Positions 7,965-58,139 of a stretch of 64,000 bases of DNA are shown piece after piece. Made by a program: the position numbers and the translations under genes. Every line of letters begins with the position of its first letter. The stretch's first letter is position 1. The stretch is taken from positions 129,649-193,648 of the forward strand of contig JACPRW010000003.1 in assembly GCA_016193585.1 (NCBI GenBank), given 5' to 3'. The DNA is from Candidatus Aenigmatarchaeota archaeon (lineage in GTDB: Archaea > Aenigmatarchaeota > Aenigmatarchaeia > GW2011-AR5). The notes below the pieces were generated by a model. It saw only the letters and a program-made list of their open reading frames with translations, was not told the DNA's origin and made no database searches.

Positions 7965-8188
7965 TTTCTTTAGTGAGTGATAACACCGGAAAAATTAAAC
8001 TGCAAAATATATAATTAAAAGTATTAGAAAATAAAAAATATAATTGAATATATATGATGGAATTAGTATTAATATACGGCTGTTATGAAATATACAAAAT
8101 AAAACATAATTTATTATATATATTTCTCAAAGAATAGATTACTGCACGCCCGTTTGTGAGGGTTCAAGTGGCAGCCTATATTATACAG

Positions 8189-9505: not shown

Positions 9506-9879
9506 GCTTGTTTCTTTTGCTCTTCGAATATAAATGCCCTGAAGTAAGCATTACTATGTCATCAAAGCATGGAAAGCGGAAATTTTCTGAATTCAGGAAA
9601 GATACTGAAATAGCACCCAAATCAATCGCGGCCATGAAAGGCATGCTCAGTGGAATGGAAACTAAACCCACAAAAATAGTAATCAAAGAAGTAAAAAGAG
9701 GGTGGAAGGATAAGCAGTCGTAGCCCGTGAAATGAGTTTTCTTCATATCCGAATATATACCGAAGGACGCAAATTATTGAATATATTACTAATGTCCTTC
9801 AGATATACCAAAGACATTATTAAGTTCAAATGTTAATGTCTTTGAGTATAAATGCTCCGTTTCCATAGTAATTGCTTGC

Positions 9880-9970
9880 AGCCCCGTAGTGTAGCGGCCA
9901 AAGGCATAAAGCCGGCTATGCATGAGAGCCTCTGGAGCTCTAGACGGCGGTTCGAATCCGCCCGGGGCTA
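9880..9970 (+). tRNA. tRNA gene, 91 nt, probably tRNA-Gln(CUG), with a roughly 16-17-nt insertion (intron) at a non-canonical position between the D-arm and the anticodon stem.
   Basis: Acceptor stem agccccg / cggggct, T-arm ggcgg-ttcgaat-ccgcc, anticodon arm agagc-cucugga-gcucu (anticodon CUG). The extra sequence is gcataaagccggctatgcatg. Confidence 0.55.
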
Positions 9971-10002
9971 CCTTTAAATATATAATTAAACATAAACATA
10001 AC

Positions 10003-10257
10003 ATGGGATTCAAGACTATTACGATAAAGGAAAGTGTCTACAGGGAGTTGTCCGGTTTAAAGGGAAAAAGTGAAAGTTTTAGCGAGTTCTTTGAAAAATT
10101 GGTCAAAGAAAAAAAGGGGAAGCCTGACCTAAGGAAATTTTACGGTTCATGGAAGATGGGCACAGGCGAATGGAGAAGAATAGGAAAAATAGTTAAAAAA
10201 AGAAGAACCGCTGCCGGCAAACGCTACAAGGAAAAATTACAGGGGCTGTTCGAATGA
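10003..10257 (+). CDS. vapB: VapB-like antitoxin (84 aa).
   Basis: Small basic protein directly upstream of a PIN toxin, overlapping it by 4 nt (ATGA). Lies in an AT-rich segment. Confidence 0.55.
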   Translation: MGFKTITIKESVYRELSGLKGKSESFSEFFEKLVKEKKGKPDLRKFYGSWKMGTGEWRRIGKIVKKRRTAAGKRYKEKLQGLFE

Positions 10258-10643
10258 AAATTCTTGATACGGATATCCTCGTAGGCGTGCTCAGAAAGAA
10301 CGATGAAGCAATAAAAAAATACGAACAAATACGGGACGTAGAAATAACTACAACCATTTTCAATGCACAAGAACTCCTGTTCGGCGCGCTTATTTCTGAC
10401 AACGCCTATGAAAATTTCAGGGCTGCAAAAGGCTTGGTCAACGAACTTGGGGCTTTAAAGTACGACGAAAAAAGCATGGTAGAATCGGTCAGGATTCAGG
10501 TATATCTTGAAAAGACCGGCAGGCACATAGGACTTGTGGATGAGATGACCGCAGGCATATGCCTTGCTCACAATGCACCCATAGTAACCAGAAATACCGT
10601 GCATTTCTCAAGAGTTTCCGGACTGAAGGTTGAGAAATGGTAG
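10254..10643 (+). CDS. vapC: PIN-domain ribonuclease toxin VapC.
   Basis: MKILDTDILV... N-terminus and conserved acidic residues of the PIN domain. Gene pair architecture. Confidence 0.8.
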   Translation: MKILDTDILVGVLRKNDEAIKKYEQIRDVEITTTIFNAQELLFGALISDNAYENFRAAKGLVNELGALKYDEKSMVESVRIQVYLEKTGRHIGLVDEMTAGICLAHNAPIVTRNTVHFSRVSGLKVEKW

Positions 10644-10691
10644 GATGGGTAAAGCTCTGGGCATGGTTCGGATACGGTTGGGCTATTAAAT

Positions 10692-11534
10692 ATGTACACA
10701 TCGGTGGAAAAAATGAGGAAAATAACCGTGGCCATGCTTATAGCAATCTTGATTGTTATTTCTGGTTGTATTAAGGAACCCAGTGGGCAAGAAATTGTCC
10801 AGAAAATCATTTTGGGAAAAAAGAATATTGTATCTTACGGATTTGACACTAACACAGCGTTCACCGTAAAGGTGAATACAACAGAAGAGAGCAGTGAGTT
10901 TCATAGAGAAGAAACCGGAATATTTACGCTTCACGCAGAAGGTTTCCTCGACGTAATGAATAACGAATCAGTCGCTAATGCTACTTACAACATGTACAAT
11001 GACGCCGGAAAACCCCCCATGAGATTTGTGAGATATGTGCGCAACGATACCGTATACGCAACATACGGGCATGGATGGTTCAGGGACAGTTATTTTGCAC
11101 CACGGATGAGTTATTTAGATACCATCTATGAAACCTTGGAAAGAACCAATGAAACGGAGATTTCATTGAACGAGACAGAAGGTCACTACATAATTACAAT
11201 GAAACTTGATACCGCTGCCAATGAGGATGTATACGCATATAACGTATTTTTTAACATTCTTTTCCTTCCTACGGCAGGTGTGTACCCATGGTATATAGAA
11301 AATCTAAGTGCAGCATTTGTGCAGGTATCGGTAGACAGACAAACATTCAGAATAGATGAATACCGAGTATACGCGTATGGTGTTTACTACAATCAAACAA
11401 TTGGTCGAGAAAGTGTAGAATATGTTGCAACTGGAAGAATTTATGATTATAACAAATCCATACAAATAGATGTGCCGCCAGAGGCGGAAGATGCCGAATG
11501 GTTTCCTGCAGGCGTAATAAGTGTAATTCTTTAG
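10692..11534 (+). CDS. Secreted/lipoprotein-like hypothetical protein with many N-glycosylation sequons.
   Basis: Signal peptide with a lipobox-like ISGC. Numerous N-x-S/T sites. Low-GC gene. Confidence 0.55.
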   Translation: MYTSVEKMRKITVAMLIAILIVISGCIKEPSGQEIVQKIILGKKNIVSYGFDTNTAFTVKVNTTEESSEFHREETGIFTLHAEGFLDVMNNESVANATYNMYNDAGKPPMRFVRYVRNDTVYATYGHGWFRDSYFAPRMSYLDTIYETLERTNETEISLNETEGHYIITMKLDTAANEDVYAYNVFFNILFLPTAGVYPWYIENLSAAFVQVSVDRQTFRIDEYRVYAYGVYYNQTIGRESVEYVATGRIYDYNKSIQIDVPPEAEDAEWFPAGVISVIL

Positions 11535-11573
11535 GTGTTATGTGTAAAGCTGTAGGTATCGGTTCGAATCAGG

Positions 11574-12362
11574 TTGGGGCTATCAGTACTACAAGGATTC
11601 GGAATGAAATTAATTTCACTAAATATATGGGGCGGGAAACTCTTTGAACCGCTCATTAATTTTGTAGATGGTTGCGCTCACGAGACAAATATCTTTTGCT
11701 TCCAGGAGATGCACCACGTAACAGCGCACGGAACTGTCAATAAAGGTACTACGTCTTTATTCTCAGAAATTTCTGGACACCTTTCCGGATTTCGAGGAAT
11801 TTTCGCCCCCACGAATAAGGTTGAATCTTCAGAAAAAGAAAGAGTTGAGACATGGAATGGGTTAGCTCTTTTTATTCGGAAACCAATTAAGGTAATTTCT
11901 CATGGCGACGTGGTCATTCATAAGCCAGCAGCGACTATTGAAGATCCAGAACACAAATCAATTCCAAGAAACTTGCAGTATGTTATATTCAAGAATGGTG
12001 GAAGGAAGTACCTGCTCTGCCACTTCCACGGTATTTGGTACCCTAAAACAAAAGTTGATACGCCAGAACGGATTGAACAATCTAAAAAAATTAGGAACTT
12101 TTTAGATTCATATCGGTGCAGAAAAATTCTGTGCGGGGATTTCAATCTTTTACCTAAGACAGGGAGCATAGAAATCCTGGAGACGGGGATGAGGAATATG
12201 GTCACTGATTTCAAAATAAAAACAACACGGAACATCCACTACACGAGAGAAGAAAAGCACGCCGATTACGTGTTAGTAACGCCGGATATAAAAGTCAAGG
12301 CGTTTAGCGTCTTGGACGACGTAGTTTCTGACCACCTCCCGTTATTTTTGGAGTTTGAATAA
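11574..12362 (+). CDS. Endonuclease/exonuclease/phosphatase (EEP) family protein.
   Basis: LNIWGG N-terminal motif and C-terminal SDHLP motif typical of the EEP family. Low-GC gene. Confidence 0.75.
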   Translation: MGLSVLQGFGMKLISLNIWGGKLFEPLINFVDGCAHETNIFCFQEMHHVTAHGTVNKGTTSLFSEISGHLSGFRGIFAPTNKVESSEKERVETWNGLALFIRKPIKVISHGDVVIHKPAATIEDPEHKSIPRNLQYVIFKNGGRKYLLCHFHGIWYPKTKVDTPERIEQSKKIRNFLDSYRCRKILCGDFNLLPKTGSIEILETGMRNMVTDFKIKTTRNIHYTREEKHADYVLVTPDIKVKAFSVLDDVVSDHLPLFLEFE

Positions 12363-17839: not shown

Positions 17840-20530
17840 CTACCCCGACAATTCCTTTTTCAGGTCTTCAATGACGTTGTCAAGCAGCTCCTTGTTATAG
17901 CCGACCCCCTGACCGAGGTGCCTGAGGCCGCCTCCTTTGCCGCCAAGCTTCTCGCACACACGCCTGATAATCTCGCCGATATCGGCGCCGCTCGCCTTGC
18001 CGGCAGAGCCAAACACAAATATTTTTTCCTTCACCCCGAACAGAAGTAGTACCTTATCGTCGCCTGAGAGCGACTTCGAGATTCCCTGAAGTTCCTGCAT
18101 GTCGGCGTCCAGCTTCTCGACAAGCACGTTGCCGGTGAAGCTCGTGCGCAGTACGTCTGTCTTTTTCTCCGACCGAACCCTCACTTTTTCCTCGACGCGT
18201 TTCTTGAGGTGCTTCCATTCTTCGAATAGCAGCTTCGTCGCTTGTACGACATTTTCTGACTGCAGGATTTCCCTGGATTCGGCCAGCAGCTCAGCAAATT
18301 TCTTCCGGTAATTCTCTGCCGCCTTGCCGGCGACGAACTCGATGCGCACGATGCCGTCCTGTATGCGCTCCGAGCGCAGGATGATGATTTCGCCGACGTC
18401 CTTTGTGTTGCCGGCATGCGTCCCGCCGCAGGCTTCAGCGTCGACATGGGGTATTTCGACTATCCGCAGCGTCCTGCCGGGGACCGCGCCTCCCTGATAC
18501 ACGGAGAAACCGAACTTCTTTTCTGCATCTGTCCTCGGAAGCACCCGTATCTTTGATGTAATCGATTTCGAGACGATGGCATTTGCCGAACGCTCGATGG
18601 TTTCAAGCTCCGTATCGGTAAGCGCGTTGTAATGCGTGATGTCGATGTGCGCTTTCTGCTCTCCCTTGAAGGCGCCTGCTTGGAATGCGTGGCCGCCCAG
18701 CACGTTTCGTGCAGCAGCGTTGATGATGTGCGTTGCAGTATGGTGCTGCGTGAGCTGCCGCCGCCGTTCCCAATCTATCGCCGCTTTCACTGTATCGCCT
18801 TCCTTGAAGCCGGGATTTTCAGCATGGTGAACGACGACCGTGCCCGCCTTCTCGACGTCGTACACGCGGGAGCTGCCGATGAAGCCAAAATCAGGTTCCT
18901 GTCCGCCGCCGCGGGGATAGAAGCACGTCCGGTTAAGGACAACGAACTTGTTGTCGACAATGCGAAGGACCGTCGCTTCGAACGATTGCATCGATTGGTC
19001 TTCGTAGTAGAGAAGCGCGGTGTCAGGCAAGTCCTCCACGCCGGGTCCTTCCTTCTCTGCAGCCATCGCCGGCTTATGAAGCTCGGCCACACGGGCATAA
19101 AAGTTGTCCGGCACCGAAACATTTTTACCGAGCTTCTGCGCCTCCTCGCGTATGATTTCCGGCGCAATGCCGTAGCTGTCGTACAGCTCAAGCAGTTTCT
19201 GCTCGTCGATGTCCGCTCGTATGATTCTGCCGACGAGCTGCCGCGATTTCTCCTTTGTCTGTTTGTAGCGCTGCGCCTCTATCTCCAGTATTTCGTTGAC
19301 GTGCCTGGCGTTCTTGGAAAGTTCCGGAAATAGAGGCTTCAGGTATTTTCCGTGAAGTTCCACGAGCTTTCCGAAATCCACGTCCCAGCCGTACTCGTCG
19401 GCGAATGAAAGCGCCCTCCTGAGGATGACCCTCAGGTTGTAGCCGCCGCCGACGTTGCTTGGCAGTGCGCCGTCGCTTATGGCGACGAGAAGCGCTCTGG
19501 TGTGCTCGGCAATGGAATAGAGCGCCGCGGCCTCGAGAACGCTTTTTTTGAGCGTCTGCATATCGATGCCCACCTTTTCCGAGACGCTTTTCCAGGAGGC
19601 GTCGATGTTTTCCGTTTCATCAATATTCAGGTACGACGCGTACGGCAGGAACGCGCGCATGAGCTGTTCGTCGAGAGCAATGCCGGTCGTGCGCTTGAGG
19701 TATTCGACGACCGGTGGGAACGTCGTCTCGTAGCTCGTTGATTTCCCAAGAGAGAACCACGCGTTTCGTTCGTGGCCCATGCCCATGTCGCAGACCCTGA
19801 GCGGAAGATTCTTGTGGCCGGAAGGCGTCATCTGGTAGAGCATGTACACCTGGTTGCCCAGTTCGAGGCCGCGGGAAAAATACTCCATGGAGGGCCCGAA
19901 ATTCCCGCCGCCCGCCCATGCGTCCTCGTGAAACGTCACTTCCTCGTTCGGCAGGCCGAGCCCGAGCTTCAGCCACTGGTGAATGTCGCTGAAAATCTTT
20001 TCCTGGTCCCACGCGTCTTCCGGGAGGAACGCATGCTGGCCTATCATCACGAATCCTGTATAATGCGAGCCGGTGACGCCGACATTGTCGATGTCATTGA
20101 ATCTGAGGCAGAATTGGGGCACGACAAGAGGGTTGGCGGGCGGCTCCACCTCGCCAGAAACGACGTAAGGCTGGAAGTTGTATATCGATGCCTGGACAAA
20201 GTCGGTGTCGTCGCGCCACCGTGCGGTCACCGGATAGCGCTTGATTGGCGTATAGCCCAGTTTCTTGAAAAGCTTTGAGAATTCTTTCCATACCTTTACA
20301 TAATCGAGCTTCTTTCGCGCAGGAGAGTTGCCAATAAAGCGGAAGCCGCCGGAGCACTCGGGATTGCCGCATACCCTCGTTTCAGTAACTGACCAGAAAA
20401 AATTGCCGCATGCCGTGCAGCGCTTCCTCGAGAATCCCTCGGACTTGAGCACGTTGACGGGATAGTACTGCTCGGGCGATTGCTGCGCCTTCTTTTTCAG
20501 CTCTGCCTTGATCTCCTTGTCGGTAGGCAT
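17840..20530 (-). CDS. alaS: Alanyl-tRNA synthetase.
   Basis: Class II AlaRS catalytic core, editing-domain HxxxH/CxxxH motifs (HHTATHII, CGGTHAGNT) and a C-terminal DHHA1-like region. Confidence 0.95.
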   Translation of the reverse strand: MPTDKEIKAELKKKAQQSPEQYYPVNVLKSEGFSRKRCTACGNFFWSVTETRVCGNPECSGGFRFIGNSPARKKLDYVKVWKEFSKLFKKLGYTPIKRYPVTARWRDDTDFVQASIYNFQPYVVSGEVEPPANPLVVPQFCLRFNDIDNVGVTGSHYTGFVMIGQHAFLPEDAWDQEKIFSDIHQWLKLGLGLPNEEVTFHEDAWAGGGNFGPSMEYFSRGLELGNQVYMLYQMTPSGHKNLPLRVCDMGMGHERNAWFSLGKSTSYETTFPPVVEYLKRTTGIALDEQLMRAFLPYASYLNIDETENIDASWKSVSEKVGIDMQTLKKSVLEAAALYSIAEHTRALLVAISDGALPSNVGGGYNLRVILRRALSFADEYGWDVDFGKLVELHGKYLKPLFPELSKNARHVNEILEIEAQRYKQTKEKSRQLVGRIIRADIDEQKLLELYDSYGIAPEIIREEAQKLGKNVSVPDNFYARVAELHKPAMAAEKEGPGVEDLPDTALLYYEDQSMQSFEATVLRIVDNKFVVLNRTCFYPRGGGQEPDFGFIGSSRVYDVEKAGTVVVHHAENPGFKEGDTVKAAIDWERRRQLTQHHTATHIINAAARNVLGGHAFQAGAFKGEQKAHIDITHYNALTDTELETIERSANAIVSKSITSKIRVLPRTDAEKKFGFSVYQGGAVPGRTLRIVEIPHVDAEACGGTHAGNTKDVGEIIILRSERIQDGIVRIEFVAGKAAENYRKKFAELLAESREILQSENVVQATKLLFEEWKHLKKRVEEKVRVRSEKKTDVLRTSFTGNVLVEKLDADMQELQGISKSLSGDDKVLLLFGVKEKIFVFGSAGKASGADIGEIIRRVCEKLGGKGGGLRHLGQGVGYNKELLDNVIEDLKKELSG

Positions 20531-32732: not shown

Positions 32733-32851
32733 TGGGCGTGACGCGATTCGAACGCGCGACCCCCTGCTGACCTTTTTAGGAAAAAGGTCAATCAAAAACC
32801 TTCTCCCTTCATTAGAAGGCAGATGCTCTATCCAAGCTGAGCTACACGCCC
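32733..32851 (-). tRNA. tRNA-Arg (anticodon UCU) with a 44-nt intron at the canonical 37/38 position.
   Basis: Complete cloverleaf: acceptor gggcgtg / cacgccc, D-arm gctc/gagc, anticodon stem tctgc/gcagg with loop cuUCUaa, T-arm gcgcg-ttcgaat-cgcgt. The intron contains a cctttttcctaaaaagg helix. Confidence 0.8.
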
Positions 32852-41425: not shown

Positions 41426-42061
41426 TCAAGGCTTATGACGGGTGATTTGATAAAAGGTCACGTCTCCTTCGTTATCCACAATCGCCCACAGCATCCGCGC
41501 CCGTATGTTGTGCGCCAGCCGCACCGAGCGCGACAGTTCCTGGAAGGACATCGTGAAATCCTCGGGAACGCAGAAGACGATCCATTTGGTGTGCTCTTTG
41601 GCGCTTTTCGGGCCCTTTTTCAGCTGGACGCCCCGTTCATAGACGCGGAAATCGACGCCGAACTTGAAGCCTGTCCGCACGAGCAAGCCGCGCTCGCGCA
41701 GGTCCTCATACACGCGGTAGCGGTGCGAAAAGCGCTTGTCAAGGGAAGCTGCGTGTTCGTACAATTCTTGGAACTTCATGGGCTCATTATTCCTGAGAAC
41801 ACGAATACGCCCGCGCTTCAGGAGCAGGCATGCCTCTACGAGGGCGAGCTCAAGGCGGTCGCCAAGCTGCTTGCCATAGAAACCGGGTTCATAGACCTGC
41901 TGCCATTTGTCCCAGGCAAATACCTTGTCTTCCTCGAGCTTCGTGTCGATGATTTCCTTCGGCGCTTCCCACTCGACGTACTCCGCTTTCTGCTGGTCCT
42001 CTTCCCAAGCCTCTTCCTCTGTTTTCTGAGCTTCATGGGGTCTTTTTTTCTTTTTGCTCAT
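41426..42061 (-). CDS. endA: tRNA-splicing endonuclease subunit (EndA family).
   Basis: C-terminal catalytic domain pattern (GFKFGVDFRVYERG ... HTKWIVFCV ... RLAHNIRARMLWAIVD). Confidence 0.8.
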   Translation of the reverse strand: MSKKKKRPHEAQKTEEEAWEEDQQKAEYVEWEAPKEIIDTKLEEDKVFAWDKWQQVYEPGFYGKQLGDRLELALVEACLLLKRGRIRVLRNNEPMKFQELYEHAASLDKRFSHRYRVYEDLRERGLLVRTGFKFGVDFRVYERGVQLKKGPKSAKEHTKWIVFCVPEDFTMSFQELSRSVRLAHNIRARMLWAIVDNEGDVTFYQITRHKP

Positions 42062-42810: not shown

Positions 42811-42884
42811 ATGGGACAGGTGCGATTTGAACGCACGACAGCACGGTCTTCAGCCGTGTGCTCTCCCAGGCTGAGCTACTGTCC
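42811..42884 (-). tRNA. tRNA-Phe (anticodon GAA), intron-less.
   Basis: Perfect cloverleaf: gggacag/ctgtccc, gctc/gagc, cacgg-cuGAAga-ccgtg, gtgcg-ttcaaat-cgcac. Confidence 0.9.
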
Positions 42885-42886
42885 CA

Positions 42887-42990
42887 GCGCCTCCGGCAGG
42901 ACTCGAACCTGCGACCACCTGATTAACAGTTTCACCCAACCTTTTATCGCTGAAAGGTTGACAGGTGCTCTACCTGCTGAGCTACAGAGG
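42887..42990 (-). tRNA. tRNA, probably Asn(GUU), 104 nt, with an about 31-nt intron located at the anticodon stem/loop junction (non-canonical position). It lies 2 nt from tRNA-Phe.
   Basis: Acceptor gcctctg/cggaggc, D-arm gctc/gagc, T-arm gcagg-ttcgagt-cctgc. The only 7-nt loop with U33 obtainable by removing one contiguous segment is cuGUUaa. The intron contains an aaccttt...aaaggtt helix. Confidence 0.6.
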
Positions 42991-43018
42991 CTTCGTTTAG
43001 TTTTATTGAGGAAAGCAT

Positions 43019-57995: not shown

Positions 57996-58139
57996 GGGCC
58001 GGTAGCTCAGTGGTAGAGCACCAGTCTTATATGACAGCCTGGTTTAAGCAGGAACAAGCCCGGCTATCGTGGTTAACTGGCGACATGTTCCGCATCGCGG
58101 AGATGCCAGAAGTCGTGAGTTCGATCCTCATCCGGCCCA
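57996..58139 (+). tRNA. tRNA gene spanning 144 nt, with about 68 nt of intervening sequence that is probably two introns. Anticodon tentatively UAU (Ile) if the first intron is at 37/38.
   Basis: Canonical 5' part (gggccgg-ta-gctc-agtggta-gagc-a) and 3' part (gtgag-ttcgatc-ctcat-ccggccc-a). Anticodon stem ccagt pairs with actgg 44 nt downstream. A further about 29 nt separates the stem from the variable loop. Confidence 0.65.

What the first reader, a model, noticed from the sequence alone, without database searches (positions are those of the whole stretch)
9880..9970. tRNA (probably Gln-CUG) with a 16-17-nt insertion at a non-canonical position
The acceptor, T-arm and a perfect anticodon arm (agagc-cucugga-gcucu) are present. 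The region between the D-stem and the anticodon stem carries about 17 extra nt (gcataaagccggctatgcatg, locally palindromic gcat...atgc). This fits an intron near positions 22-26 rather than at 37/38.
Basis: partly seen in the sequence, partly recalled or inferred. Interest (0 to 1): 0.55.

Follow-up and report, generated by a model that had tools for sequence, protein, structure and literature searches.

The report
tRNA-Gln gene with D-loop intron
This is a real glutamine tRNA gene from an uncultured DPANN archaeon, interrupted by an 18-base intron in its D-loop; such introns are a known archaeal oddity that standard gene finders misread.

Summary
Window 9880-9970 (+) is a genuine tRNA-Gln(CUG) gene in a Candidatus Aenigmarchaeota (DPANN) genome. 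It carries one non-canonical intron. The intron is 18 nt (9902-9919) and lies between A21 and G22, at the D-loop/D-stem junction. It is not 16-17 nt at 22-26.

- **Fold:** the precursor forms a relaxed bulge-helix-bulge (HBh') motif. D-loop G18G19C20C20a pairs with intron GGCU, followed by a 3-nt AAA bulge and a 3-bp inner hairpin.
- **Product:** excision gives a 73-nt tRNA whose D-arm matches intronless archaeal tRNA-Gln genes.
- **Class:** at least 86 distinct environmental tRNA-Gln genes and four DPANN genome genes have an intron at the same site, with clear covariation in both helices.
- **Relatives:** syntenic orthologues carry their intron at 20a/20b or 37/38 instead.
- **Enzyme:** the window also encodes a splicing endonuclease with a Nanoarchaeum-type basic loop. 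Throughout its clade, Ala replaces the canonical catalytic Lys.

D-loop HBh' introns are already documented, so this is a new member of a known kind. ARAGORN mislabels three of the window's five tRNAs.

The parts
9847..9852 (+). TATA-like box (TATAAA), about 30 nt upstream of the mature 5' end. Putative archaeal promoter element.
   Evidence: Read directly from the sequence. The promoter role is inferred from the usual archaeal TATA position and was not tested.
9880..9901 (+). Exon 1: acceptor 5' strand 9880-9886, U8 A9, D-stem 5' strand GUGU 9889-9892, and the complete 9-nt D-loop AGCGGCCAA 9893-9901 (A14...A21).
   Evidence: Rfam alignment. Comparison with 92 intronless tRNA-Gln genes. PWM and BHB mapping.
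9896..9899 (+). 5' strand of the central 4-bp helix H (G18 G19 C20 C20a of the D-loop).
   Evidence: MFE and centroid fold. Pair probability 0.67-0.72. In the intron class the Y20 partner covaries: C-G 51, U-A 32.
9900..9902 (+). 3-nt 5' bulge AAA. The predicted 5' cleavage is between 9901 and 9902.
   Evidence: Folds. The BHB rule, as implemented, places the cut after the second nt 3' of each H strand. In 24 of the 29 single-intron class members first analysed the bulge is AAA.
9902..9919 (+). Intron, 18 nt: AGGCAUAAAGCCGGCUAU, between tRNA positions 21 and 22.
   Evidence: It is the only excision with H 4/4, a 3-nt bulge and h' of 3 bp or more that also yields a canonical 73-nt tRNA.
9903..9913 (+). 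Inner hairpin h': GGC 9903-9905 pairs with GCC 9911-9913; loop AUAAA 9906-9910.
   Evidence: Folds. Pair probability 0.72. Across the class h' averages 4.8 bp against 0.65 bp when shuffled, and pair 1 is 100% paired using four Watson-Crick types. In L243 the pairs are flipped (GCC/GGC).
9914..9917 (+). 3' strand of helix H (GGCU), inside the intron.
   Evidence: GGCU is among the commonest H 3' strands in the class.
9918..9920 (+). 3' splice region A U | G. The predicted 3' cleavage is between 9919 and 9920. It lies in an internal loop opposite nt 13/14-16, not in a closed 3-nt bulge, which is the relaxed HBh' feature.
   Evidence: No outer helix h is found. Pairing of A14 with the last intron nt is not conserved, at 17 of 75.
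9920..9970 (+). Exon 2: D-stem 3' strand GCAU 9920-9923, G26 9924, anticodon arm 9925-9941 (anticodon CUG 9932-9934), variable loop AGAC 9942-9945, T-arm 9946-9962, acceptor 3' strand 9963-9969, discriminator A 9970.
9971..9972 (+). CC following the discriminator, so the CCA end is only partly encoded.
   Evidence: Read directly from the sequence.
41426..42061 (-). tRNA splicing endonuclease EndA, 211 aa. It is the enzyme expected to excise the intron.
   Evidence: Pfam tRNA_int_endo_N (5e-15) and tRNA_int_endo (6e-28). Best solved relatives are M. jannaschii alpha4 EndA (3e-36) and the N. equitans alpha subunit (4e-30). It has a NEQ-type basic loop, and Ala at the catalytic-Lys column.

Best explanation
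The locus is the tRNA-Gln(CUG) gene of a Candidatus Aenigmarchaeota (DPANN) archaeon. One protein-spliced archaeal intron of 18 nt (9902-9919) interrupts it between A21 and G22.

**Precursor fold.**
- D-loop nucleotides G18 G19 C20 C20a pair with GGCU near the 3' end of the intron, forming the central 4-bp helix H.
- A20b, A21 and the first intron nucleotide form the 3-nt 5' bulge.
- The intron interior forms a 3-bp hairpin, h'.
- The 3' splice site lies two nucleotides after helix H, in an internal loop next to the D-stem.

This is a relaxed bulge-helix-bulge motif of the HBh' type.

**Processing.** The splicing endonuclease cuts after 9901 and after 9919. An RNA ligase joins the exons into a 73-nt tRNA with the standard D-loop AGCGGCCAA. 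Because helix H uses G18 and G19, the D-loop/T-loop elbow cannot form until the intron is removed.

**Shown versus inferred.** The fold, the comparative support for both helices and both splice sites, the identity of the mature product, and the presence of an EndA gene are shown. Cleavage, ligation and expression are inferred.
For: 1. **It is a tRNA.** Rfam tRNA scores 53.7 bits with the insert placed in the D-loop.
2. **The fold is the favoured one.** The MFE and the centroid are both the H / bulge / h' fold at -40.5 kcal/mol. Pair probabilities are about 0.7, against 0.00 for the rival hairpins.
3. **One excision stands out.** Enumerating all BHB-like excisions leaves a single one with H 4/4, a 3-nt bulge and h' of 3 bp that restores a tRNA. 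ARAGORN then calls it tRNA-Gln(ctg).
4. **The product matches intronless genes.** 92 of 112 archaeal tRNA-Gln genes sampled are 73 nt, with the D-loop AGYGGYCAA ending in A21. The spliced product reproduces GTGTAGCGGCCAAGCATG exactly as in intronless L085.
5. **Two criteria agree.** The PWM-best excision and the BHB rule coincide at the same site in L053, L069, L120 (Woesearchaeota) and L084 (Aenigmatarchaeota).
6. **The class covaries.** 86 distinct metagenomic tRNA-Gln genes carry an insert at this exact site. Features the search pattern did not constrain behave as the structure predicts:
   - the Y20 partner is C-G 51, U-A 32, U.G 2, C.A 1 (Fisher p = 4e-20)
   - h' averages 4.8 bp against 0.65 bp when shuffled
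   - in-register pairing is 90%, against 40-68% when the partner is slid
7. **Chance is unlikely.** A shuffled intron gives this geometry in 0.03% of trials.
8. **Orthologues carry other introns.** Syntenic genes in three relatives are tRNA-Gln(CUG) with BHB-type introns at 20a/20b (L127, L130) or 37/38 (L128).
9. **An enzyme is encoded nearby.** The window has an EndA with the N. equitans-type basic loop.
10. **There is precedent.** D-loop introns, including the HBh' type, are spliced in A. pernix tRNA-Thr (PMC3241643) and occur at 20b/21 in M. kandleri tRNA-Glu (PMC5829648).
Against: - **No RNA-level evidence.** Nothing here shows expression or splicing.
- **The 3' site is not canonical.** It is not in a closed 3-nt bulge, because there is no outer helix. 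Recognition therefore depends on a broad-specificity enzyme.
- **The enzyme is atypical.** The only EndA seen has Ala where the catalytic Lys should be. The equivalent K-to-A mutants of ARMAN-2 and M. kandleri EndA are inactive (PMC3488258, PMC5829648). Its activity therefore needs a compensating residue or a partner subunit that I did not find.
- **PWM alone does not fix the boundary.** It cannot separate 9902-9919 from 9903-9920. Only the helix geometry does, at 4/4 against 0/4 pairs.
- **The covariation counts are not independent.** They come from related sequences collected with a pattern that fixed three of the four H pairs.
Confidence: 0.85

Rival explanations
1. The D-stem closes with the first GCAU (9904-9907), and a 16-17-nt intron lies between the D-stem and the anticodon stem, at positions 22-26. 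This uses the GCAU...GCAU direct repeat, for example by excising 9904-9919 or 9908-9923.
For: ARAGORN also calls the 16-nt and 17-nt excision products tRNA-Gln. The GCAU direct repeat and the GCAUA/UAUGC palindrome are really in the sequence.
Against: - It leaves an 11-nt D-loop, AGCGGCCAAAG, ending in G. All 92 intronless 73-nt tRNA-Gln genes have a 9-nt loop ending in A21.
- No 4-bp helix in BHB register exists for any of the five equivalent cut positions.
- Pair probability is 0.00 for the first-GCAU D-stem and for the palindrome hairpin. The forced folds cost 5-9 kcal/mol.
Confidence: 0.03
2. A 16-nt intron at 9901-9916, defined by the alternative central helix CGGC (9895-9898) / GCCG (9911-9914). 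The mature D-loop would be AGCGGCCAUAU.
For: The helix is 4/4 G-C pairs in correct BHB register. It has pair probability 0.14-0.28 in the ensemble.
Against: - It has no inner helix h' and no outer helix.
- The product has an 11-nt D-loop ending in U instead of A21, which is seen in none of the comparators.
- Class members conserve the GGYC / GRYY register, not this one.
Confidence: 0.04
3. The same 18-nt intron shifted by one nucleotide (9903-9920). This gives the D-stem 3' strand ACAU with a U13-A22 pair.
For: The PWM and stem score is identical to that of the preferred model, at 110.3.
Against: - The central helix in that register has 0 of 4 pairs.
- Position 22 is G in most class members, and U13.G22 is the norm for these tRNA-Gln genes.
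Confidence: 0.03
4. A pseudogene. A tRNA-Gln gene was inactivated by a random 18-nt insertion, and the insert is never removed.
For: No expression data. The local EndA lacks the canonical catalytic Lys.
Against: - The insert has exactly the splice-motif geometry, which arises by chance in 0.03% of shuffles.
- The same site and design recur in at least 90 genes with covariation.
- The gene is the syntenic orthologue of tRNA-Gln(CUG) in three relatives, each of which also carries an intron.
- The sequence is identical in five independent assemblies.
- All stems and conserved positions are intact.
Confidence: 0.04
5. ARAGORN's reading: an intron-less 93-nt class II tRNA (Ser-GCU, or an undetermined tRNA with a 4-nt anticodon) in which the Gln anticodon arm serves as a long variable arm.
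For: ARAGORN output.
Against: - The drawn structure has a D-arm of only 1-2 pairs.
- The anticodon loop is irregular, and two runs give inconsistent anticodon calls (gct and gccg).
- A1-U72 and the D-loop are tRNA-Gln hallmarks.
- ARAGORN makes the same kind of error on two other intron-bearing tRNAs in the window.
Confidence: 0.01

Closest known systems
Methanopyrus kandleri pre-tRNA-Glu(UUC) D-loop intron at 20b/21 (relaxed HBh' motif; Kaneta et al. 2018, PMC5829648)
   Same: - It is a non-canonical intron inside the D-loop with a relaxed HBh' motif.
- It sits one nucleotide away from the site here.
- It occurs in the closely related Glx tRNA family.
- It disrupts D-loop tertiary contacts until it is spliced.
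   Different: - The site is 20b/21, not 21/22.
- That tRNA also has a 37/38 intron.
- The host is a euryarchaeon with an (alpha-beta)2 EndA that lacks any specificity loop and cuts the HBh' intron poorly.
Aeropyrum pernix pre-tRNA-Thr(UGU) D-loop intron (Hirata et al. 2011, PMC3241643)
   Same: It is a D-loop intron removed by EndA alone. This shows experimentally that D-loop introns are spliced without guide RNAs or modifications.
   Different: - It is described as a canonical BHB motif at a non-standard position.
- The host is crenarchaeal, with a CSL-bearing (alpha-beta)2 enzyme.
- The isotype is different.
Non-canonical and multiple tRNA introns of Thermoproteales and ARMAN-2 (Sugahara 2008 and Fujishima 2010/2011, as reviewed in PMC4090602, PMC4033280 and PMC3239211)
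   Same: - The mechanism is the same: BHB or relaxed-BHB recognition by a broad-specificity EndA.
- Genomes carry many disrupted tRNAs. Four of the five tRNAs in this window have introns, at 21/22, 30/31, 37/38 and 45/46.
- Intron positions differ between orthologues.
   Different: - The lineage is Aenigmarchaeota.
- 21/22 is not among the sites listed in the review I could read: 20/21, 22/23, 25/26, 29/30, 30/31, 45/46, 53/54, 56/57, 59/60.
- The enzyme is a single alpha-type protein, not (alpha-beta)2 or epsilon2.
Nanoarchaeum equitans EndA alpha subunit (PDB 3IEY) with its basic 'NEQ-specific' loop, called L3 by Kaneta et al.
   Same: The window EndA aligns to the NEQ loop without gaps (QLKKGPKSAKEH against IPKKGKRSEREH), just before the catalytic His. 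Kaneta et al. associate L3-bearing alpha4-type EndAs of DPANN and Hadesarchaea with heavy tRNA gene disruption.
   Different: - The window protein has Ala at the catalytic-Lys column, where NEQ has Lys.
- No beta subunit was seen in the window.
- Overall it is closer to M. jannaschii alpha4 EndA.

Membership tests
tRNA (Rfam RF00005), isotype Gln, anticodon CUG | Covariance-model score above the curated threshold | tested here: met
   53.7 bits against a gathering score of 29, over model positions 1-71.
tRNA (Rfam RF00005), isotype Gln, anticodon CUG | A canonical cloverleaf after intron removal (7/4/5/5-bp stems, U8, A14, G18G19, A21, U33, purine 37, T-loop UUCGAAU), with anticodon CUG | tested here: met
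   The 73-nt product is called tRNA-Gln(ctg) by ARAGORN. The conserved positions can be read in the sequence.
tRNA (Rfam RF00005), isotype Gln, anticodon CUG | Archaeal tRNA-Gln signature: A1-U72 and the 9-nt D-loop AGYGGYCAA | tested here: met
   The D-arm is identical to those of intronless archaeal tRNA-Gln genes. 16 of the 92 have exactly AGCGGCCAA.
tRNA (Rfam RF00005), isotype Gln, anticodon CUG | Expressed, spliced and aminoacylated in vivo | not testable with these tools
   No transcriptome data are available here.
Archaeal EndA-dependent tRNA intron, strict hBHBh' motif | Two closed 3-nt bulges separated by a 4-bp helix and flanked by an outer helix h and an inner helix h' | tested here: not met
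   H is 4/4, the 5' bulge is 3 nt and h' is 3 bp. The outer helix h is 0 bp, and the 3' site lies in an internal loop.
Archaeal EndA-dependent tRNA intron, relaxed HBh' subtype at a non-canonical position | A 4-bp central helix, one canonical 3-nt bulge and an inner helix, with cleavage sites two nt 3' of each H strand | tested here: met
   The same rule reproduces the PWM-best mature tRNA in the other single-intron D-arm genes of the sample.
Archaeal EndA-dependent tRNA intron, relaxed HBh' subtype at a non-canonical position | Excision restores a canonical mature tRNA | tested here: met
Archaeal EndA-dependent tRNA intron, relaxed HBh' subtype at a non-canonical position | The helices are supported by covariation in homologous introns | tested here: met
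   The Y20 partner is C-G 51, U-A 32, U.G 2, C.A 1. h' pair 1 is 100% paired using four Watson-Crick types. In-register pairing is 90%, against 40-68% when slid. The sequences are not phylogenetically independent.
Archaeal EndA-dependent tRNA intron, relaxed HBh' subtype at a non-canonical position | The genome encodes a splicing endonuclease of a broad-specificity type | tested here: inconclusive
   EndA is present in the window with a NEQ-type (L3-like) basic loop. The catalytic-Lys column is Ala. EndAs on two other contigs carrying 21/22 introns lack the loop extension. The subunit composition is unknown.
Archaeal EndA-dependent tRNA intron, relaxed HBh' subtype at a non-canonical position | Demonstrated cleavage at the predicted sites and ligation of the exons | not testable with these tools
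   This needs an in vitro assay or RNA-seq.
Canonical archaeal or eukaryal tRNA intron (37/38) | The intron lies one nucleotide 3' of the anticodon | tested here: not met
   The anticodon loop CUCUGGA is uninterrupted.
Class II tRNA-Ser (ARAGORN's call) | A Ser anticodon in a regular 7-nt loop, a normal D-arm and a long variable arm | tested here: not met
   The D-arm has 1-2 pairs, and the anticodon calls are inconsistent or 4 nt long.

The most novel reading that the evidence does not exclude
The intron may be one instance of a large class that has not been described as such. The class would be D-loop (21/22) HBh' introns, concentrated in tRNA-Gln (with at least one tRNA-Glu case) of DPANN archaea, whose central helix is built from the invariant G18G19 nucleotides.

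In Aenigmarchaeota this class may be processed by an uncharacterised EndA subfamily. In that subfamily the canonical transition-state Lys (M. jannaschii K156) is replaced by Ala. A Lys in the inserted basic loop (the K of GPK, five residues before the catalytic His) may have taken over its role. That would link a rewired active site to relaxed substrate specificity.
Probability: 0.2. Interest if true: 0.6.

Novelty: new member of a known kind. Interest (0 to 1): 0.33.

Why it matters
**Annotation.** Without recognising the intron, this genome appears to lack tRNA-Gln(CUG) and to have a spurious tRNA-Ser.
- ARAGORN mislabels three of the window's five tRNAs: Gln as Ser, Asn as Ile, and Ile as Leu.
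- Rfam's curated threshold misses all three orthologous genes in relatives.
- Kaneta et al. 2018 already noted that DPANN tRNA sets look incomplete and need manual curation.
- The non-canonical intron models of tRNAscan-SE 2.0 were trained on Crenarchaeota/Euryarchaeota and Thaumarchaeota (PMC8450103).

**Biology.** The case adds a well-supported example of the co-evolution of tRNA gene disruption and EndA architecture in DPANN.
- Intron position turns over at a single orthologous gene: 21/22, 20a/20b and 37/38.
- The work also turned up an EndA clade with a non-canonical catalytic column, which may deserve its own study.

Tried and rejected
- **ARAGORN's Ser(gct) / ?(gccg) call.** Rejected as an artefact.
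Rejected on D-loop comparison, BHB geometry and pair probabilities.
- **Integrated element next to the tRNA 3' end** (VapBC, a hypothetical gene and an EEP-family gene, 10005-12362; absent in relatives). No att-like repeat of the tRNA was found. The only repeat is an AT-rich 15-mer at 8005 and 9976.
- **Isotype specificity of the 21/22 site.** The by-catch in the fetched loci was only about 31 non-Gln tRNAs, so the test is underpowered. One tRNA-Glu(CUC) on L241 has a 21/22 intron, so the site is not strictly Gln-only.
- **Rfam scan of syntenic loci.** It found nothing. The orthologues had to be found by a T-loop motif scan plus ARAGORN.
- **Exact-protein look-ups.** The 84-aa ORF upstream is not on record. 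The look-up of the AlaRS did not return the NCBI contig, so the MAG accession is not known.
- **Literature.** Marck & Grosjean 2003 is not held. Position strings such as "21/22" cannot be searched. I therefore could not exclude that 21/22 is listed somewhere, for example in Sugahara 2008.
- **Scan caps.** Class counts are therefore lower bounds and say nothing about frequencies.
- **EndA probe.** EndA was first found with a probe sequence recalled from memory. That result served only as a lead and was then verified with Pfam and PDB searches.
- **Lysine-relocation idea.** It could not be tested, because the structure tools return no coordinates.
Full report
**1. What is at the coordinates**

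Window 9880-9970 (+) matches the Rfam tRNA model over its full length. The score is 53.7 bits against a gathering score of 29, and the alignment places a 22-nt unaligned block inside the D-loop. The sequence shows a 7-bp acceptor stem, the T-arm GGCGG-UUCGAAU-CCGCC and the anticodon arm AGAGC-CUCUGGA-GCUCU with anticodon CUG.

ARAGORN instead reports a 93-nt tRNA-Ser(gct). In a second run it reports an undetermined tRNA with a 4-nt anticodon. Its drawing has a D-arm of only one or two pairs and uses the Gln anticodon arm as a variable arm. I treat that call as an artefact.

The window holds five tRNA matches, and four of them have inserts. That pointed to an archaeon with many tRNA introns.

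**2. Where the intron is**

The minimum-free-energy and centroid folds of the precursor are identical, at -40.5 kcal/mol and z = -2.45. They contain these elements:

| Element | Coordinates | Sequence |
|---|---|---|
| D-stem | 9889-9892 / 9920-9923 | GUGU / GCAU (the second GCAU) |
| Central helix H | 9896-9899 / 9914-9917 | GGCC / GGCU |
| 5' bulge | 9900-9902 | AAA |
| Inner hairpin h' | 9903-9905 / 9911-9913 | GGC / GCC, loop AUAAA |

I applied the standard archaeal bulge-helix-bulge rule, which places each cut two nucleotides 3' of each strand of the central helix. This rests on established knowledge of EndA substrates, as reviewed in PMC6379350 and PMC4090602. It gives an 18-nt intron, 9902-9919.

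I then enumerated every 4-bp helix in BHB register across the gene. This is the only excision that combines a fully paired H, a 3-nt bulge and an inner helix, and that also leaves a tRNA.

Pair probabilities are 0.67-0.72 for H and h'. An alternative helix, CGGC/GCCG, has 0.14-0.28. A shuffled intron gives H 4/4 plus h' of at least 3 bp in this register in 0.03% of trials.

**3. Independent check from intronless genes**

A pattern scan of the species-level genome collection fixed only the acceptor 3' strand, the T-loop and the anticodon loop.
- Of 112 complete genes, 92 are exactly 73 nt.
- All 92 have a 9-nt D-loop, AGYGGYCAA or a close variant, always ending in A21 and running straight into the D-stem 3' strand.
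- The 18-nt excision gives a 73-nt product whose D-arm, GTGTAGCGGCCAAGCATG, is identical to that of intronless L085.

A PWM built from the 73-mers cannot separate 9902-9919 from 9903-9920. The helix register can, with 4/4 pairs against 0/4.

**4. The same intron elsewhere**

*Genome sample.* About 18 tRNA-Gln genes have inserts in the 5' half. For each single-intron gene, the PWM-best excision coincides with a BHB-rule excision.
- Four have the intron at exactly the window's site: L053, L069 and L120 (Woesearchaeota) and L084 (Aenigmatarchaeota). Their H helices are GGUC/GACC, GGCC/GGCC and GGCC/GGCU.
- Others lie at 10/11, 15/16, 20a/20b, 20b/21 and 22/23.
- Every named carrier is DPANN or Hadarchaeota. 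None of the many Thermoplasmata, Methanosarcinales, Archaeoglobi or Thermococci genes has one.

It yielded 86 distinct complete tRNA-Gln genes, 56 CUG and 30 UUG, with an insert at 21/22. Of these, 57 also have a second insert after nt 37.

Features that the pattern left free behave as the structure predicts:
- The partner of Y20 is C-G 51, U-A 32, U.G 2 and C.A 1 (Fisher p = 4e-20).
- The inner helix averages 4.8 bp against 0.65 bp when shuffled.
- The first h' pair is 100% paired using all four Watson-Crick types.
- In-register pairing of h' is 90%, against 40-68% when the partner is slid.
- The D-stem is 86-100% paired.

The nearest relative, L243, matches the window gene at 65 of 73 mature positions. 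Its 17-nt intron, AGCCAGAAGGCGGCUAU, has the h' pairs flipped relative to the window.

These counts come from related sequences and are not independent events.

**5. Organism and orthologues**

The window's alanyl-tRNA synthetase is 100% identical to a protein named [quoted passage not shown], from a 345,983-bp contig. The next relatives are about 60% identical. The window also encodes FtsZ, topoisomerase VI and ribosomal proteins. The tRNA is identical in five independent assemblies of one sample series.

The gene order AlaRS-carA-carB-(tRNA)-79 aa-DJ-1 is conserved in three relatives. Rfam's threshold finds no tRNA there. A T-loop motif scan finds the orthologous tRNA-Gln(CUG) in each, and ARAGORN confirms them after excision.

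| Locus | Intron | Position | H helix |
|---|---|---|---|
| window | 18 nt | 21/22 | GGCC / GGCU |
| L127 | 19 nt | 20a/20b | GUGG / CCGC |
| L130 | 25 nt | 20a/20b | GUGG / CCAU (h' 6 bp) |
| L128 | 40 nt | 37/38 (canonical hBHBh') | no D-loop intron |

So the intron position has changed repeatedly at one orthologous gene.

**6. Mechanism**

The motif has a canonical 5' bulge flanked by H and h'. There is no outer helix. The 3' site sits in an internal loop opposite nt 13/14-16, and the A14 pairing seen in the window's MFE fold is not conserved. This is the relaxed HBh' type.

According to the literature I read:
- Such motifs are cut efficiently only by EndAs with extra "specificity loops" (PMC6379350, PMC5829648).
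- D-loop introns are spliced in A. pernix tRNA-Thr (PMC3241643).
- An HBh' intron lies at 20b/21 in M. kandleri tRNA-Glu (PMC5829648).
- DPANN and Hadesarchaea carry alpha4-type EndAs with an "L3" (Nanoarchaea/ARMAN-2) loop, associated with heavy tRNA gene disruption (PMC5829648).

The window itself encodes an EndA at 41426-42061 (-), 211 aa, with both Pfam domains.
- Its best solved relatives are M. jannaschii alpha4 EndA and the N. equitans alpha subunit.
- Relative to the M. jannaschii, A. fulgidus and M. kandleri enzymes, it has a 5-8-residue insertion before the catalytic His.
- The insertion aligns without gaps to the basic NEQ-specific loop: QLKKGPKSAKEH against IPKKGKRSEREH (loop defined in PMC3488258).

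The inferred steps are cleavage after 9901 and after 9919, followed by ligation. Because H uses G18 and G19, the elbow cannot form before splicing. That last point is also an inference.

**7. A complication, and a lead**

At the column of the catalytic Lys (M. jannaschii K156, ARMAN-2 K282, M. kandleri K334) the window EndA has Ala, in the context RLAHNIRARM.
- The column is Ala in 120 of the 120 closest homologues, which are 70-100% identical and several of which are named Aenigm(at)archaeota. The next residue is R, K or H, and the loop is almost invariant.
- K282A and K334A mutants are reported inactive (PMC3488258, PMC5829648).
- Among the 150 best representatives of the whole family, the column is K in 134 and A, S or T in 14. 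The 14 are mostly the proteins with the long loop carrying a conserved G-P/x-K five residues before the His.
- Either the lysine role has moved into the loop, or a partner subunit exists elsewhere. I could not test this.
- EndAs on two other contigs with 21/22 introns (L215, L223) keep the Lys and lack the loop extension. The extension is therefore not required for this intron class.

**8. Verdict**

Non-canonical, relaxed-BHB, D-loop introns are a known phenomenon, also in lineages with L3-type EndAs. This is therefore a new member of a known kind.

What may be new is that the 21/22 site is a common, covarying intron class in DPANN tRNA-Gln genes. I found no description of this in the literature I could search, and 21/22 is absent from the site list in PMC4090602. 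The associated Aenigmarchaeota EndA clade also lacks the canonical catalytic Lys.

Noticed in passing
window 41426-42061 (-): The EndA (tRNA splicing endonuclease) gene has Ala at the canonical catalytic-Lys column (RLAHNIRARM against M. jannaschii RVAHSVRKKL). This holds in 120 of the 120 closest homologues. Tyr, His and a nearly invariant basic loop, GVQLKKGPKSAKEH, are retained. Across 150 family representatives, the 14 non-Lys cases cluster with the long G-P/x-K loop. The catalytic lysine may have relocated into the loop, or a partner subunit may exist.
   Followed up: partly
window 41426-42061 compared with 17840-20530: EndA is far more conserved in this clade than AlaRS. EndA stays at 70% identity or more over 120 cluster representatives, whereas AlaRS drops to about 60% at its nearest relative.
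   Followed up: no
window 42888-42991 (-): This tRNA becomes tRNA-Asn(GUU) after removal of a 31-nt intron at 30/31, inside the anticodon stem (H CACC/GGUG, h' 8 bp). ARAGORN calls the raw gene Ile(aat). It lies directly upstream of an intronless tRNA-Phe(GAA) at 42812-42885 and about 750 nt from the EndA gene.
   Followed up: partly
window 57996-58139 (+): This tRNA has two introns: 43 nt at 37/38 and 29 nt at 45/46 (H CUGG/CCAG). The spliced product is tRNA-Ile(UAU). ARAGORN calls the raw gene Leu(gag). tRNA-Ile(UAU) is the AUA-decoding solution reported for ARMAN lineages (PMC3239211).
   Followed up: partly
window 32733-32851 (-): tRNA-Arg(UCU) with an anticodon-loop intron of about 44-46 nt. 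I did not resolve a clean 4/4 BHB helix for it.
   Followed up: no
L127 21193-21284 (-), L128 18489-18601 (-), L130 about 18375-18472 (-; derived from reverse-complement coordinates): The syntenic tRNA-Gln(CUG) orthologues carry their introns at other sites: 20a/20b, 37/38 and 20a/20b respectively. All three are missed by Rfam at the gathering threshold.
   Followed up: yes
window 10005-12362 (+): A block of VapB, VapC (PIN), a 273-aa hypothetical gene and an Exo_endo_phos-family gene lies between the tRNA 3' end and carB. Its GC content is lower, at 44%. The block is absent at this position in relatives L128 and L130. No att-like repeat of the tRNA was found.
   Followed up: partly
L127 21365-21991 (-): A 208-aa ORF with a weak LAGLIDADG_3 hit lies immediately next to the intron-bearing tRNA-Gln of this relative.
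   Followed up: no
L241, + strand, from about 8814 (112-nt gene): A tRNA-Glu(CUC) carries a 21/22 D-loop intron plus a second intron, so the 21/22 site is not restricted to tRNA-Gln.
   Followed up: partly
L132-L251 (metagenome loci): 57 of the 86 tRNA-Gln genes with a 21/22 intron also have a second insert of 12-56 nt after nt 37. Doubly interrupted tRNA-Gln genes are therefore the majority in this sample.
   Followed up: partly
window 8005-8019 and 9976-9990 (+): The same AT-rich 15-mer, AAATATATAATTAAA, occurs just downstream of the tRNA (upstream of vapB) and about 2 kb upstream. It may be a shared promoter-type element.
   Followed up: no
window 42858-42918 (-): A sub-threshold Rfam YrlA (Y RNA-like) hit, 31 bits against a gathering score of 69, spans the junction of the tRNA-Asn and tRNA-Phe genes. 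It is most likely a tRNA-like chance match.
   Followed up: no
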